Assembly (NCBI RefSeq): GCF_030384885.1
Contig: NZ_CP128613.1
Source of the DNA: Escherichia coli
GTDB taxonomy: Bacteria; Pseudomonadota; Gammaproteobacteria; Enterobacterales; Enterobacteriaceae
Strand: one strand, 5' to 3'
Length of the DNA stretch: 64,000 nt
Shown: positions 44,301-50,300 of the stretch, piece after piece
How the letters are laid out: each line of letters opens with the position of its first letter
How positions within the stretch are numbered: the first letter of the stretch is position 1
Program-made: the position numbers

Positions 44301-47300
44301 ATGCCCTTCAGAGACGGACTCGGACGTAAAAAGGTGTTTTGCCATATTTAATATCACCTAAAGAGAATTTGGTTAGCTCAAACTGTTGTGTGGATTTTCT
44401 GTGGTAGCGGATCCTACCACGACTCTGCAGGTTAAAAACACTGGCAGTCTGAGTGTTAATCGGTATGGATGGATTAACATCTGGATGGCTATTTTAGGTC
44501 AGTTCTTCACCCAATTTCCACTTTTTTTTGAATCGTGTCTCATTCTGTTAAAAACGTGGCTGGAAATTTTTCCTGACAATGCTGGCATTCTGCGTATTTA
44601 TCTTTTGCAATTTTCTGCCATTGTGGGGTATAAAACGCGGCGCGCGGCTTAAATAAAAAGCACACGACGTTTCTTTCGTGTTGCCACTTCCAGCCGGGTT
44701 GAAATCAGAGTTTTGGCTTGTGGGTTCGTCTTAACAGGCGGCCGTGGAGGTGATACGAAATAATGAACCGTTGTCTGCTGCTTAACCTGTCTCACCGTTC
44801 TGGTGAAGATTCGTTCCCCGCACTCTGCATCTCTGCTTTGCATACCTGCCGATGTTATACCCATCTCGGCGCTTCTCAGGATTCAAGAGCTGGTTACAGT
44901 TACTGAGGACTGAACAAGGGCGCTCTTGTAAAAACAAGAGTTTTCTCGTGGTTTCGCCGAACTGTCACACTTACGTTCGGTTATGTGTTTAATAATGTTA
45001 TGAAAAAGAAACCGGTTGCGCAGTCGGAGCGTCAGCATACTTTGCTGGAAAATCCGTGTGCTTATGGGTTGTTATCGCAGTCCCAGGCTGCGATAGTCGT
45101 TAACTGTTTTACACTTAATAAAATAATTTGAGGTTCGCTATGTCTGACGACATGTCTATGGGTTTGCCTTCGTCAGCGGGCGAACACGGTGTACTACGCT
45201 CCATGCAGGAGGTTGCAATGAGCTCCCAGGAAGCCAGCAAGATGCTGCGTACTTACAATATTGCCTGGTGGGGCAATAACTATTATGACGTTAACGAGCT
45301 GGGTCACATTAGCGTGTGCCCGGACCCGGACGTCCCGGAAGCTCGCGTCGATCTCGCGCAGTTAGTGAAAACTCGTGAAGCACAGGGTCAGCGTCTGCCT
45401 GCACTGTTCTGTTTCCCACAGATCCTGCAGCACCGTTTGCGTTCCATTAACGCCGCGTTCAAACGTGCGCGGGAATCCTACGGCTATAACGGCGATTACT
45501 TCCTCGTTTATCCGATCAAAGTTAACCAGCACCGCCGCGTGATTGAATCCCTGATTCATTCGGGCGAACCGCTGGGCCTGGAAGCCGGTTCCAAAGCTGA
45601 GTTGATGGCGGTACTGGCGCATGCTGGCATGACCCGTAGCGTCATCGTCTGCAATGGTTATAAAGACCGAGAATATATCCGCCTGGCATTAATTGGCGAG
45701 AAGATGGGCCATAAGGTCTATCTGGTCATTGAGAAGATGTCAGAAATCGCCATTGTGCTGGATGAAGCAGAACGTCTGAATGTCGTTCCTCGTCTGGGCG
45801 TGCGCGCGCGTCTGGCGTCTCAAGGTTCTGGCAAATGGCAGTCTTCTGGCGGGGAAAAATCGAAGTTCGGCCTGGCGGCGACTCAGGTACTGCAACTGGT
45901 TGAAACCCTGCGTGAAGCCGGACGTCTCGACAGCCTGCAACTGCTGCACTTCCACCTCGGTTCGCAGATGGCGAATATTCGCGATATCGCCACGGGCGTT
46001 CGTGAATCCGCGCGTTTCTATGTGGAACTGCACAAACTGGGCGTCAATATTCAGTGCTTCGACGTCGGCGGCGGTCTGGGCGTGGACTATGAAGGCACCC
46101 GTTCGCAGTCTGACTGCTCCGTAAACTACGGCCTCAATGAATACGCCAACAACATCATCTGGGCGATTGGTGATGCGTGTGAAGAAAATGGTCTGCCACA
46201 TCCGACGGTAATCACCGAATCGGGTCGTGCGGTGACTGCGCATCACACCGTGCTGGTGTCGAATATCATCGGCGTGGAACGTAACGAATACACGGTGCCG
46301 ACCGCGCCAGCAGAAGACGCACCGCGCGCGCTGCAAAGCATGTGGGAAACCTGGCAGGAGATGCACGAACCGGGAACTCGCCGTTCTCTGCGTGAATGGT
46401 TACACGACAGCCAGATGGATCTGCACGACATTCATATCGGCTATTCTTCGGGCACTTACAACCTGCAAGAACGCGCGTGGGCTGAGCAGCTTTATCTGAG
46501 CATGTGTCACGAAGTGCAAAAGCAGCTGGATCCGCAAAACCGCGCACATCGCCCGATTATCGACGAATTGCAGGAACGTATGGCGGACAAAATGTACGTC
46601 AACTTCTCGCTGTTCCAGTCGATGCCGGACGCATGGGGGATCGACCAGTTGTTCCCGGTATTGCCGCTGGAAGGGCTGAATCAAGTTCCGGAGCGACGCG
46701 CCGTGCTGCTGGATATTACCTGTGACTCTGACGGTGCCATCGACCACTATATCGATGGTGATGGTATTGCCACGACAATGCCTATGCCGGAGTACGATCC
46801 AGAGAATCCGCCGATGCTCGGTTTCTTTATGGTCGGCGCGTATCAGGAGATCCTCGGCAACATGCACAACCTGTTTGGTGATACCGAAGCGGTTGATGTG
46901 TTCGTCTTCCCTGACGGCAGCGTAGAAGTGGAACTGTCTGACGAAGGCGATACCGTGGCGGACATGCTGCAATATGTACAGCTCGATCCGAAAACGCTGT
47001 TAACCCAGTTCCGTGATCAAGTGAAGAAAACCGATCTTGATGCTGAACTGCAACAACAGTTCCTGGAAGAGTTCGAGGCAGGTTTGTACGGTTATACCTA
47101 TCTTGAAGATGAATAATTAAGATTATTCCGCTATCGGGTCGATTTATTTACGTAAATCGGCCCGCTTTCTTTTTATATATTCTTAAAAATAATTTAGCTG
47201 CTTTCCTTATTGAATAATCTCCCTACAATCGCTGCATTAATTAAATGCAGAGGGAACGGTTATGAAAAAATGGAAAGTACGTAGCGCGTTGGTGGCATTA

Positions 47301-50300
47301 GTCGTGCTGCTGGCCGGTTGTTCCAGTAATGCGCAGTATAATAGCAGTGCATCGGGCAATGTCGGCACCGCCTGGGGTGGGGATGTGCACTCAACGGTTC
47401 AGGGCGTATCTGCTGAACGAGCCTGGCGCGATCCGGCAGAGATGATCGTTATTAGTTATTCGACTAATGTTCCTTCCGGCTACGACCGCGTTTATAGCAT
47501 TCGTATTAACGAACTTGAATATGCTATTCGCGATGGTAATTTTAATTCTCTACCTATTACGCGGGTTTATAATTCATCAGGTAAAGAACTACGCTATATA
47601 GTCCATGCCAGAGTAGGAATGAATTACCAATTATATGTCCGCAATTACAGTCGTAACACCAACTACGAGATCGTTGCGACAGTTGATGGCCTGGATGTTC
47701 TCAATGGTAAACAAGGTTCCCTGAATAACAACGGCTATATTGTGAATGCCGGGGATTCGTTGGCGATTAAAGGATTCCGCAAAGATAAACATACCGAAGC
47801 GGCTTTTCAGTTCGCCAACGTTGCTGATTCCTACGCAGCCAATTCGGCGCAAGGCGATGTGCGTAATATCGGTGTAATCGGCTTTGCCGCCTTTGAATTA
47901 CAAGGCCCGGCGCAAAACGCGCTGCCACCGTGCTCTGGACAAGCGTTTCCGGCGGACAACAATGGCTATGCGCCGCCACCGTGTCGGAAATAGTAACCTC
48001 GCTTGATGCCTCGCCCATTTAAGGCGATAATTAGCACAAAATTGTGTTTCGCAAATCCAACCCTTCCTCGTCGGGCCTAACGACGCGGAAGGGTTTTTTT
48101 ATATCGACTTTGTAATAGGAGTCCATCCATGAGCACCTTAGGTCATCAATACGATAACTCACTGGTTTCCAACGCCTTTGGTTTTTTACGCCTGCCGATG
48201 AACTTCCAGCCGTACGACAGCGACGCCGACTGGGTGATTACCGGCGTGCCGTTCGATATGGCGACGTCAGGCCGTGCGGGTGGACGCCACGGTCCGGCGG
48301 CGATCCGTCAGGTTTCGACGAATCTGGCCTGGGAACACAACCGCTTCCCGTGGAATTTCGACATGCGCGAGCGTCTGAACGTGGTGGACTGCGGCGATCT
48401 GGTGTATGCCTTCGGCGATGCTCGTGAGATGAGCGAGAAGCTGCAGGCGCATGCCGAAAAGCTGCTGGCTGCCGGTAAGCGTATGCTCTCCTTCGGTGGT
48501 GACCACTTTGTTACCCTGCCGCTGCTGCGTGCTCATGCGAAGCATTTCGGCAAAATGGCGCTGGTACACTTTGACGCCCACACCGATACCTATGCGAACG
48601 GTTGTGAATTTGACCACGGCACTATGTTCTATACCGCGCCGAAAGAAGGTCTGATCGACCCGAATCACTCCGTACAGATTGGTATTCGTACCGAGTTTGA
48701 TAAAGACAACGGCTTTACCGTACTGGACGCCTGCCAGGTGAACGATCGCAGCGTGGATGACGTTATCGCCCAGGTGAAACAGATTGTAGGTGATATGCCA
48801 GTTTACCTGACCTTTGATATCGACTGCCTGGATCCTGCTTTCGCGCCGGGCACCGGTACGCCGGTGATCGGCGGCCTGACCTCCGATCGCGCCATTAAAC
48901 TGGTACGTGGCCTGAAAGATCTCAACATCGTTGGGATGGACGTAGTGGAAGTGGCTCCGGCATACGATCAGTCGGAAATCACCGCTCTGGCAGCAGCGAC
49001 GCTGGCGCTGGAGATGCTGTATATTCAGGCGGCGAAAAAGGGCGAGTAAGCGCCAGATGCGATGTCGCCCGTAGGCCGGATAAGATGCGTCAGCATCGCA
49101 TCCGGCATTGCGGACAGGGTAACAAATGTGCCATTCATGTCAGATGCGGCGTGAACGCCTTATCTGACCTACGTTCGGCACCACCAGGCTTTACTTAACC
49201 CCATCCGCGCTCATACGATCGCGAATATGCTGGGCGCGTTCGGCGGATGCCGGATGGTCGTCAAACATTGAGCTTTGGCGGCCTTCTTCCAGTTTCGCCA
49301 GTTTTTCAAAGCTGGTGGCAAGACCAGCCGGGCTGATGCCGCGTTGGCGCAGAAGATCGTAAGAATAATCATCGGCTTCTGCTTCCTGGCGCTGGGAGAA
49401 TTGCGAATTGACTAATTTCTCGCCCAAGTCACCAAGTTGCGATTGCGATAAACTGCCGACAATCCCGCCCGCAGAGGCCGCAGCTACTCGCACGGCATTT
49501 GTACCAAGTGCCACCTGCATCCCTTTCTTCACATGGCCTAACGCCACGTGCCCCATTTCGTGACCGATCACCGCTTCGACTTCGTTATCCGTCATCATAT
49601 CCATCAGCCCGCTATAGACGCGGATACAGCCGTTAGCCATTGCAAAGGCGTTCACATCCTTCGCCATATACACTTTGTAATTCACCGGCTGACCGTTGAT
49701 ATTGTTGCCTAGCGCATTGGCAATAGTTGTCAGACGTTTAGCGTATTCGCTATTGGCTGGCGCAATTGTCGCCTTGCTGTCCATCTCCTGACATGCCTGA
49801 TCGCTCAGGGCTTTCACCTGCGCATCACTCAAACTGTAAGCCTGAAAAGCTTCCGCTCCTGATGAGAGCAGTCCGTTGGAGTCCATATTCTGGCAACCGG
49901 TCAGTACCGTTGCCACGCTCATTGCTACCAATAAGGCGCGAATTTTCATGTTTTCTCTTCCGCACAAGGTCAGGATTATTCTAAAAATGCACCGTTCGCA
50001 GGTGAATCGATGCTCAGTCTCAGTATAAGGAAAAGCGCAGCGGACGGGCGAGCAGATTGCGCAACATGCGAGCATGATCCAGAGATTTCTGAAGCAGCAA
50101 AAGGATGTTCCATGTACATGACGCGCGGCTTGCGGTAAATTGTTGGCAAATTTTCCGGCGTAGCCCAAAACGCGCTGTCGTCAAGTCGTTAAGGGCGTGC
50201 CCTTCATCATCCGATCTGGAGTCAAAATGTCCTCACGTAAAGAGCTTGCCAATGCTATTCGTGCGCTGAGCATGGACGCAGTACAGAAAGCCAAATCCGG

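What the first reader, a model, noticed from the sequence alone, without database searches (positions are those of the whole stretch)
47262..47993. Lipoprotein gene inserted in the speA-speB interval
speA and speB are recalled as near-contiguous in K-12 (about 140 bp), whereas here about 1 kb separates them and encodes a 243-aa lipoprotein with its own RBS and a downstream hairpin terminator. The central coding region is noticeably AT-rich and the protein has no family I can name.
Basis: partly seen in the sequence, partly recalled or inferred. Interest (0 to 1): 0.5.

Follow-up and report, generated by a model that had tools for sequence, protein, structure and literature searches.

The report
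Ancestral lipoprotein gene that K-12 lost
The extra gene between speA and speB is a real lipoprotein gene of unknown function, but it was not inserted here: it is an old resident of this site in enteric bacteria, and E. coli K-12 and about a third of E. coli strains have lost it.

Summary
ORF 47262-47993 (+) encodes a 243-aa lipoprotein precursor (lipobox LAG|C, Cys20). It has its own Shine-Dalgarno sequence and sits between two strong terminator-like hairpins in a 1012-bp speA-speB interval. The K-12-type interval is 137 bp.

The interpretation "inserted" is not supported. The same gene sits directly after speA in E. albertii, E. whittamii, Salmonella, Citrobacter, Kluyvera, Klebsiella, Phytobacter, Kosakonia, Entomohabitans and Intestinirhabdus. 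No mobility genes or target-site repeats flank it. It is under purifying selection (dN/dS about 0.1). Its low GC3 and AT-rich centre recur in every orthologue, so they belong to the gene and do not mark recent transfer.

Of 5426 complete E. coli genomes, 3550 carry it. Another 1867 carry one K-12-type junction, where 935 bp are replaced by a 60-bp spacer of unexplained origin. That spacer still keeps the speB promoter layout.

The protein belongs to a large proteobacterial family with no Pfam or NCBIfam model, no solved relative and no literature found. A confident model is all-beta, with only generic MATH- or DUF7918-like fold resemblance. Function is unknown; I infer an outer-membrane-anchored binding module.

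It is ordinary and already annotated, so interest is low.

The parts
45140..47116 (+). speA (biosynthetic arginine decarboxylase), the upstream neighbour
   Evidence: RefSeq annotation of the identical record, mapped to window coordinates; ORF list.
47135..47174 (+). T1: intrinsic-terminator-like hairpin after speA (13-bp stem at 47135-47164, then a T-rich run). It is absent from the K-12-type allele.
   Evidence: Terminator scan. Fold dG -18.4 kcal/mol, z -4.4. The stem is kept by compensatory changes across genera (alignment A6).
47224..47229 (+). TACAAT, a -10-like hexamer upstream of the lipoprotein gene. It is conserved as TACAAT, TACTAT or TACTGT in Escherichia, Salmonella, Citrobacter and Klebsiella. 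No good -35 element is present.
   Evidence: Alignment A6. It did not pass the simple sigma-70 scan, so its promoter role is inferred.
47232..47250 (+). Perfect 7-bp inverted repeat CTGCATT-AATTA-AATGCAG abutting the Shine-Dalgarno GAGGG (47250-47254). It could be a 5'-UTR stem or an operator.
   Evidence: Direct reading. Identical in all Escherichia alleles aligned. Function not tested.
47262..47993 (+). Lipoprotein gene (243 aa). Residues 1-19 are the signal peptide. Cys20 (codon 47319-47321) is the lipidation site. Residues 21-32 form a low-confidence linker. Residues 33-213 are the all-beta body. Residues 214-243 are a Pro-rich tail with two PPC motifs (Cys223, Cys241).
   Evidence: ORF and RefSeq CDS. 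(conserved Cys and core motifs). (model, mean pLDDT 89.8). (dN/dS 0.08-0.17). (internal PPC repeat D2).
47571..47591 (+). Allele-specific loop, residues 104-110: NSSGKEL here against DSSNNEP in the five other E. coli alleles compared and in E. whittamii (E. albertii has DSSNNAP). It lies in the local divergence peak of the gene.
   Evidence: Protein comparison. Divergence is 8-10.5% in 47562-47761 against 2-4% in the rest of the gene.
47117..48051 (.). The 935-bp segment (T1, promoter region, gene, first 58 nt of its 3' flank) that a 60-bp spacer replaces in the K-12-type allele.
   Evidence: Alignments. The junction probe is covered in 1867 genomes. The spacer shows no significant similarity to the segment.
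48003..48031 (+). Promoter-like element TTGATG-17 nt-GATAAT downstream of the gene, presumably the speB promoter. Hexamers and 17-nt spacing are conserved in all genera and in the K-12-type spacer (TTGAAT-17-GATAAT).
   Evidence: Promoter scan; alignments A4 and A7. Activity not tested.
48059..48100 (+). T2: hairpin plus seven T between that promoter-like element and the speB ribosome-binding site. It would terminate the lipoprotein transcript and could act as a leader attenuator for speB. It is present in K-12 too.
   Evidence: inverted repeat I1. The 21-nt core is identical in Klebsiella, C. freundii and all E. coli alleles. A compensatory C-to-T / G-to-A pair occurs in K. spallanzanii.
48129..49049 (+). 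speB (agmatinase), the downstream neighbour

Best explanation
The ORF is a genuine, vertically inherited gene for a lipoprotein. It has sat between speA and speB since at least the common ancestor of Escherichia, Salmonella, Citrobacter, Klebsiella and Kosakonia. The window shows the ancestral arrangement. K-12 and about 34% of complete E. coli genomes carry a derived allele. In that allele, 935 bp (the speA terminator, the gene's promoter region and the gene) are replaced by a 60-bp spacer that keeps the speB promoter layout.

Shown: presence and synteny in outgroups, purifying selection, the flanking terminator-like hairpins, the population frequencies, the absence of mobility signatures, and a confident all-beta model with no characterised relative.

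Inferred from established rules of lipoprotein biogenesis: the precursor is exported by Sec, lipidated at Cys20 by Lgt, LspA and Lnt, and sorted by Lol to the outer membrane because residue +2 is Ser and not Asp. The gene is probably transcribed on its own, from a weak or activator-dependent promoter (-10 TACAAT) between terminators T1 and T2.

Inferred and least secure (about 0.35): the tethered beta-sandwich body is a non-enzymatic binding module in the cell envelope. It is dispensable in the laboratory and in some lineages, and it is not a step of putrescine synthesis.
For: Synteny: the arrangement is speA-X-speB in Klebsiella and C. freundii, in E. albertii, and in E. whittamii, other Escherichia spp., Kluyvera, K. 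spallanzanii, Phytobacter, Kosakonia and Intestinirhabdus. Salmonella has speA-X followed by an inserted island. Entomohabitans has one extra ORF between speA and X.

Selection: dN/dS is 0.08-0.17 for X, about 0.01 for speA and about 0 for speB, at the same dS. Within-E. coli diversity of X (1.4-4.1%) matches that of its flanks.

Composition: X has GC3 of 0.43-0.51 in most genera (0.59-0.64 in Entomohabitans and Intestinirhabdus), below the speA/speB flanks in every genus compared (flanks 0.57-0.79). The central AT trough is present in every orthologue.

Population: 3550 of 5426 genomes carry X. 1867 cover the K-12-type junction probe.

No direct or inverted repeats bracket the gene and no mobility ORFs lie in the interval.

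Lipoprotein signal: direct reading and conserved Cys.

Terminators. Conserved -10.

Against: The K-12-type 60-bp spacer is not a simple leftover of the X-type sequence. Its local alignment score against the 935-bp segment is no better than shuffles (11 against 9.2 +/- 1.2), and it matches no fetched locus. The loss was therefore not a plain recent deletion, and its history is unresolved.

X has the second-lowest GC3 of 51 ORFs in the window (z -2.0). After such long residence this is not fully explained.

Nothing here shows expression, lipidation, localisation or any binding partner. No conserved neighbours outside Enterobacteriaceae give a functional hint.

The promoter is inferred only; the sigma-70 scan found none upstream of the gene.
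Confidence: 0.8

Rival explanations
1. One reading: the gene is a recent horizontal insertion into the speA-speB interval of this lineage, and K-12 shows the ancestral contiguous state.
For: X is absent from K-12-type genomes. GC3 is at the low tail of the window (z -2.0). The centre is AT-rich.
Against: The gene sits at the same site in other Escherichia species and in at least nine other genera. The composition anomaly is shared by all orthologues. No repeats, integrase, IS or tRNA lie at the borders. dS of X equals that of its flanks.
Confidence: 0.03
2. The gene is functionally coupled to polyamine synthesis, for example as an envelope partner for SpeA or for agmatine or putrescine handling. 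Its long linkage to speA would then reflect that function.
For: It has stayed directly downstream of speA across many genera. This holds even in Salmonella, where an island separates it from speB. It has the same orientation as speA and speB.
Against: Strong terminator-like hairpins separate it from both neighbours. Homologues in Providencia, Proteus, Gilliamella, Neisseria, Acinetobacter, Pseudomonas, Variovorax and others have unrelated, non-recurrent neighbours. A third of E. coli strains make do without it. It evolves about ten times less constrained than speA and speB.
Confidence: 0.1
3. On the origin of the short allele: the K-12-type interval is a patch imported by homologous recombination from a more distant enterobacterium that had already lost the gene. 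It is not an in-situ deletion within E. coli.
For: The 60-bp spacer keeps the positional architecture of the speB promoter region: the -35 and -10 hexamers, the 17-nt spacing, and a CACAA..TTGTG palindrome. At the unconstrained positions it is diverged to saturation, whereas E. albertii and E. whittamii are nearly identical to E. coli X-type there. Similarity resumes abruptly at the ultra-conserved T2 hairpin and in the last codons of speA. One junction is shared by 1867 genomes.
Against: No donor was found among the fetched loci. An old deletion allele followed by divergence, or a deletion with filler DNA, is not excluded.
Confidence: 0.4
4. The ORF is a chance open frame or a decaying pseudogene with no function.
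For: No family name, no literature. It has been lost or disrupted in some lineages.
Against: The 243-aa frame is kept intact across genera. dN/dS is about 0.1. There are 2934 representative relatives at E<=1e-3 with conserved motifs. The fold prediction is confident.
Confidence: 0.01

Closest known systems
RefSeq 'hypothetical protein / lipoprotein / membrane protein' orthologues at the same site (e.g. WP_000758925.1 in E. coli 2013C-4282, WP_000758914.1 in O157:H7; the Salmonella orthologue is, from memory and unverified, STM3085 'putative outer membrane lipoprotein')
   Same: Same gene and same position after speA. Protein identity is 100% to WP_000758925.1, about 97% to the other E. coli alleles compared (94% to strain 266917_2), and 75% to Salmonella.
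   Different: The window carries a rare allele: only 7 of 5426 genomes are >=99% identical. It has a distinctive loop at residues 104-110. None of these entries has a tested function.
Fungal DUF7918 domain and MATH/TRAF-type beta-sandwiches (structural resemblance only)
   Different: No sequence-level match to any Pfam model even at E<=10. This protein is bacterial, lipid-anchored and secreted. DUF7918 is itself uncharacterised, so the resemblance says nothing about function.
Generic Gram-negative outer-membrane lipoproteins (Lgt/LspA/Lnt/Lol substrates)
   Same: A signal peptide with lipobox LAG|C, Ser at +2, and a flexible linker before a folded domain.
   Different: It belongs to none of the curated lipoprotein families in NCBIfam. 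Only the signal region gives weak hits, E 0.005-0.4, far below the cut-offs.

Membership tests
Bacterial lipoprotein (Lgt/LspA/Lnt substrate) | N-terminal signal peptide with a charged n-region and a hydrophobic h-region | tested here: met
   MKKWKVRSALVALVVLL read directly from the translation. The model places a helix at residues 4-17.
Bacterial lipoprotein (Lgt/LspA/Lnt substrate) | Lipobox [LVI][ASTVI][GAS]-C with a conserved Cys | tested here: met
   L-A-G-C at residues 17-20. The Cys column is conserved in at least 90% of 89 homologues.
Bacterial lipoprotein (Lgt/LspA/Lnt substrate) | Actual acylation, globomycin-sensitive cleavage and outer-membrane location | not testable with these tools
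   Only the sequence rule is available: Ser, not Asp, at +2 implies Lol-dependent outer-membrane sorting (established knowledge).
Horizontally acquired insertion / genomic islet | Absent from the same site in outgroup species | tested here: not met
   Present after speA in E. albertii, E. whittamii, Salmonella, Citrobacter, Kluyvera, Klebsiella, Phytobacter, Kosakonia, Entomohabitans and Intestinirhabdus.
Horizontally acquired insertion / genomic islet | Mobility genes, flanking direct repeats, or a tRNA or IS at the borders | tested here: not met
   No such ORFs in the interval. The only flanking direct repeats (D1, D3; 73-80% identical) do not coincide with the K-12 junction. No tRNA search was run.
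Horizontally acquired insertion / genomic islet | Composition atypical for the host | tested here: inconclusive
   GC3 is 0.467, rank 2 of 51, z -2.0. The same deficit and the same AT trough occur in all orthologues, so it is a property of the gene.
speAB polyamine operon / pathway member | Co-transcription with speA and speB | tested here: inconclusive
   Same strand, but bracketed by two strong terminator-like hairpins and preceded by its own conserved -10-like box. No expression data.
speAB polyamine operon / pathway member | Linkage to polyamine genes wherever the family occurs | tested here: not met
   Across 80 loci from about 35 genera, no neighbour cluster recurs outside Enterobacteriaceae.
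DUF7918 / MATH-TRAF fold families | Match to the family's profile HMM | tested here: not met
   No Pfam hit at E<=10 for the protein. None of 89 plus 20 homologues scanned matched either family.
DUF7918 / MATH-TRAF fold families | Shared three-dimensional fold | tested here: inconclusive
Any curated protein family (Pfam, NCBIfam, PADLOC, PHROGs, PDB sequences) | Significant profile or sequence match | tested here: not met

The most novel reading that the evidence does not exclude
The lipoprotein is an envelope component that works with the arginine decarboxylase branch of putrescine synthesis, which would explain why it has stayed glued to speA for so long. K-12-based knowledge of this pathway would then lack a component that most E. 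coli and most enterobacteria possess. A second, independent novel reading concerns the ultra-conserved hairpin plus U-run (48059-48100). It lies between the conserved promoter-like element and speB, and it could be a ligand- or protein-responsive leader attenuator of speB.
Probability: 0.08. Interest if true: 0.55.

Novelty: already known. Interest (0 to 1): 0.2.

Why it matters
The finding mainly corrects direction. K-12 is the odd one out at this locus, so "extra relative to K-12" should not be read as "inserted".

The gene marks a large lipoprotein family. There are about 2900 representative clusters at 50% identity across alpha-, beta- and gamma-proteobacteria and myxobacteria. The family has no Pfam or NCBIfam model, no solved structure and no publication found, so it is a reasonable candidate for a new domain-of-unknown-function entry and for a simple knockout study.

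It does not open or settle a long-standing question.

Tried and rejected
1. Function from sequence profiles: Pfam on the protein, on 89 homologues and on 20 longer homologues; NCBIfam on 11 members; PADLOC; PHROGs; PDB sequences. All were empty or gave only signal-peptide noise.
3. Function from genomic context: 80 loci were clustered and nothing recurred outside Enterobacteriaceae.
4. Literature: searches on speA/speB with lipoprotein, STM3085, guessed locus tags and DUF7918 found nothing about the gene. c3522 turned out to be speB of CFT073.
5. Rare allele as a sign of recombinational import of the gene alone: rejected. speA and speB of the window are equally diverged from other E. coli (dS about 0.2 for all three genes).
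6. Inter-genus exchange of X, suggested by 61% against 76% identity in two Klebsiella: not supported. K. spallanzanii X is the closest to every other genus, which points to unequal rates.
7. Deletion between direct repeats as the origin of the K-12 allele: the repeats found do not coincide with the junction.
8. Donor of the K-12 spacer: no match in any fetched locus.
9. Rfam: nothing in the interval. The only hit was a sub-threshold naRNA4/REP-like match downstream of speB.
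Full report
**1. What is there**

The window around the finding reads metK (-), yqgD/yqgG/yqgB, speA (45140-47116, +), an ORF at 47262-47993 (+), speB (48129-49049, +), loiP (-) and tkt (+). The window is 100% identical over this stretch to E. coli strain 2013C-4282, where RefSeq annotates the same 732-nt CDS as a hypothetical protein, WP_000758925.1.

The product begins MKKWKVRSALVALVVLLAG-C, a textbook lipoprotein signal with lipobox LAG|C and Cys20. A GAGGG Shine-Dalgarno lies 7 nt upstream of the ATG.

The interval between speA and speB is 1012 bp here and 137 bp in the K-12 derivative J53. GC falls to 0.385-0.435 in the middle of the gene, against 0.50-0.64 in the neighbours.

**2. Transcriptional anatomy**

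Immediately after speA there is a 13-bp-stem hairpin followed by a T-rich run (T1, 47135-47164; dG -18.4 kcal/mol, z -4.4). Its stem is maintained by compensatory changes from Escherichia to Kosakonia.

About 35 nt upstream of the ATG there is a -10-like TACAAT (47224-47229). It is conserved as TACAAT, TACTAT or TACTGT in Escherichia, Salmonella, Citrobacter and Klebsiella, but it has no convincing -35. A perfect 7-bp inverted repeat (47232-47250) abuts the Shine-Dalgarno sequence.

Downstream of the stop codon come three elements:
- a promoter-like TTGATG-17-GATAAT (48003-48031);
- a short palindrome CACAA..TTGTG;
- a 15-bp-arm hairpin followed by seven T (T2, 48059-48100; dG -24.4 kcal/mol, z -4.6), which sits just before the speB ribosome-binding site.

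The gene thus looks like a self-contained unit between two terminators. That it is transcribed on its own is inferred, not shown.

**3. Insertion or loss?**

Orthologues were found at 75% identity in Salmonella, 72-74% in Citrobacter, 61-76% in Klebsiella and 66% in Kluyvera, among others. Their genomic positions are as follows.
- Klebsiella and C. freundii have speA-X-speB.
- Salmonella has speA-X followed by an inserted GntR/sugar-dehydrogenase island.
- E. albertii has speA-X-speB.
- A scan of one genome per species returned the same arrangement in E. whittamii, two unnamed Escherichia species, Kluyvera, K. spallanzanii, Phytobacter, Kosakonia, Entomohabitans (with one extra ORF) and Intestinirhabdus.
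- Cluster members are also named from E. fergusonii and, as fragments, from Shigella.

No mobility gene lies in the interval, and no repeat pair coincides with the K-12 junction. The gene is therefore ancestral at this site and the short K-12 interval is derived.

**4. Composition and selection**

X has lower GC (mostly 0.46-0.53) and GC3 (mostly 0.43-0.51) than speA and speB (GC3 0.57-0.79) in every genus examined, including Klebsiella (0.51 against 0.74). The central AT trough is present in all orthologues. It coincides with an Asn-, Tyr-, Ile- and Val-rich stretch of beta-strands.

In the window X has the second-lowest GC3 of 51 ORFs of at least 150 aa (z -2.0). The anomaly is real, but it belongs to the gene and does not date its arrival.

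Against other E. coli alleles, E. albertii and E. whittamii, dN/dS is 0.08-0.17 for X, about 0.01 for speA and about 0 for speB, at similar dS. Within-species diversity of X (1.4-4.1%) matches that of its flanks. X is a functional gene that evolves faster than its neighbours: X is 75% identical to Salmonella, whereas SpeA is 97% identical.

The pairwise identity matrix is compatible with vertical descent at unequal rates.

**5. Population picture**

Of 5426 complete E. coli genomes, 3550 contain the gene at 80% coverage or more. A further 1867 cover a 221-nt probe across the K-12-type junction, and the listed examples are 100% identical. The few remaining genomes have disrupted copies, for example an IS3 insertion in strain A30.

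K-12 derivatives (DH1, MC1061, J53) and a BL21-type strain lack the gene. O157:H7 and O104:H4 have it.

The window's allele is rare: 7 genomes are at least 99% identical. The whole speA-speB segment of this strain is about equally diverged from other E. coli, with dS about 0.2 for all three genes, so this reflects lineage and not an event specific to the gene. The allele has one distinctive feature, a cluster of four substitutions in residues 104-110: NSSGKEL here against DSSNNEP in the other E. coli alleles compared and in E. whittamii, and DSSNNAP in E. albertii.

**6. The K-12-type junction is not a clean deletion**

In K-12, 935 bp (47117-48051) are replaced by 60 bp. Those 60 bp have no significant similarity to the replaced segment: the local alignment score is 11 against 9.2 +/- 1.2 for shuffles.

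Yet they reproduce the architecture of the X-type 3' flank:
- TTGAAT-17 nt-GATAAT at the same distance from the preceding stop codon;
- a hairpin inside the spacer;
- a CACAA..TTGTG palindrome.

Identity becomes perfect exactly at the T2 hairpin. E. albertii and E. whittamii carry the E. coli X-type sequence here.

The short allele is therefore either an old, much-diverged lineage of this region or a patch imported from a more distant relative that had already lost the gene. I could not find a donor, and this remains unexplained.

**7. What the protein is**

The family is large: 2934 representatives (50%-identity clusters) at E<=1e-3, and 911 at E<=1e-10. It spans Enterobacterales, Neisseriaceae, Burkholderiales, Pseudomonas, Acinetobacter, Rhodobacterales, Inquilinus and myxobacteria. 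Members almost always have a lipobox Cys and a variable Ala/Pro/Ser-rich linker.

The conserved core reads LGTxWGE ... YEIVATVDGLDVLxGxPGS..NRGY ... GFRKS...VAAFRFS ... SYAA...GD.RNVGVIG.A.F ... FP. Invariant residues are R53, G143, G149, G171, R173, F182 and G204.

No Pfam, NCBIfam, PADLOC or PHROG family and no PDB sequence matches.

An AlphaFold2 model built on 89 sequences is confident (mean pLDDT 89.8, pTM 0.78). It is all-beta from residue 33 to 213, with a less confident Pro-rich tail that carries two PPC motifs.

Fold searches gave the following.
- Foldseek against AFDB50 returned only family members labelled "outer membrane lipoprotein" or uncharacterised.

Neighbouring genes outside Enterobacteriaceae are unrelated from genus to genus. 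By my own reading of the translations, not tested, they include metJ, thrS, recO, hisD, ahcY, mltG and sbcC.

**8. Most likely mechanism**

From established lipoprotein biogenesis, the precursor is exported, lipidated at Cys20 and sorted to the outer membrane (Ser at +2). A roughly 12-residue tether holds a two-lobed beta-sandwich body.

There is no catalytic-family signature, the fold resembles protein- or peptide-binding sandwiches, evolution is fast but purifying, and the gene is repeatedly lost in laboratory-adapted or host-restricted lineages. I therefore consider a non-enzymatic envelope binding role the most likely, at about 0.35. This step is inference.

A role in polyamine metabolism is possible because of the persistent linkage to speA. 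The terminators, the lack of such linkage elsewhere and the gene's dispensability argue against it, and I put it at about 0.1.

**9. Comparison with the known, and novelty**

The gene is already annotated in thousands of public genomes as a hypothetical protein, lipoprotein or membrane protein. Nothing about it is unusual in kind, and the supposed "insertion" is an ancestral gene that K-12 lost.

Two things remain open: the function of a sizeable unnamed lipoprotein family, and the origin of the K-12 spacer.

The score is low: interest 0.2, novelty "already known".

Noticed in passing
window 48003-48100: A promoter-like TTGATG-17-GATAAT is followed by a very stable hairpin plus U7 just upstream of the speB ribosome-binding site. 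The hexamers and their spacing are conserved in all genera aligned. The 21-nt hairpin core is identical in E. coli (both allele types), Klebsiella and C. freundii, and K. spallanzanii has one compensatory pair. Phytobacter and Kosakonia lack the hairpin. It looks like a leader terminator or attenuator for speB. No Rfam family matches.
   Followed up: partly
locus L002 2941-3000 (K-12-type speA-speB spacer; replaces window 47117-48051): The 60-bp K-12 spacer has no detectable sequence similarity to the X-type interval or to any fetched locus. It still keeps the promoter architecture of the X-type 3' flank. Its origin (imported patch or old diverged allele) is unexplained.
   Followed up: partly
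window 47571-47591: There is a cluster of four amino-acid changes in seven residues: NSSGKEL here against DSSNNEP in the other E. coli alleles compared and in E. whittamii (DSSNNAP in E. albertii). It lies inside an 8-10.5% nucleotide divergence peak and may be a small conversion tract or a variable surface loop.
   Followed up: partly
window 43762-51296: Divergence from other E. coli is mosaic. It is about 0% in 44762-44961 and 50097-50496 but 4-10% across speA, speB and parts of loiP and tkt. The proteins are almost identical (dS about 0.2), which suggests a deeply diverged or recombinant haplotype of the whole region.
   Followed up: partly
window 49074-49169: A sub-threshold Rfam match to naRNA4 (49.6 bits against a gathering score of 59.5) lies between speB and loiP. 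I read it as a probable REP-type element; that was not tested. The speB-loiP spacing differs by about 60 bp in strain 266917_2 (L012).
   Followed up: no
L004 5886-10732 (Salmonella); L094 5938-7500 (E. albertii); L028 5637 onward (Entomohabitans); L007 about 5775-5900 (C. freundii): The neighbourhood is an insertion hot spot. Salmonella has a GntR regulator/sugar-dehydrogenase island after the lipoprotein gene in place of speB. E. albertii has a DUF1266 gene between speB and loiP. Entomohabitans has an extra 295-aa ORF between speA and the lipoprotein gene. C. freundii has an insert of about 125 bp between the speB promoter-like element and the leader hairpin.
   Followed up: no
L096 3001-5155 (E. 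coli A30); cluster members P0283, P0286, P0292: The gene is occasionally inactivated. Strain A30 has an IS3-family insertion splitting it. Truncated 93-181-aa forms occur in some E. coli and in Shigella flexneri and S. dysenteriae.
   Followed up: partly
window 47919-47932 and 47970-47983: An internal 14-nt direct repeat encodes two 'PPC' motifs (ALPPC and APPPC) in the C-terminal tail. The two cysteines (223 and 241) are conserved in Enterobacteriaceae and may form a disulfide bond.
   Followed up: no
L023 (labelled Chryseobacterium sp. 18061) and L055 (labelled Mycobacterium sp. KBS0706): Contigs filed under non-proteobacterial names encode close proteobacterial-type homologues, at 63% and 40% identity. 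These are probably contaminated or mislabelled assemblies.
   Followed up: no
L056 5765-7700 (Acinetobacter sp. ANC 3832): Two family members lie in tandem (267 and 258 aa), so the family has local duplications in some genera.
   Followed up: no
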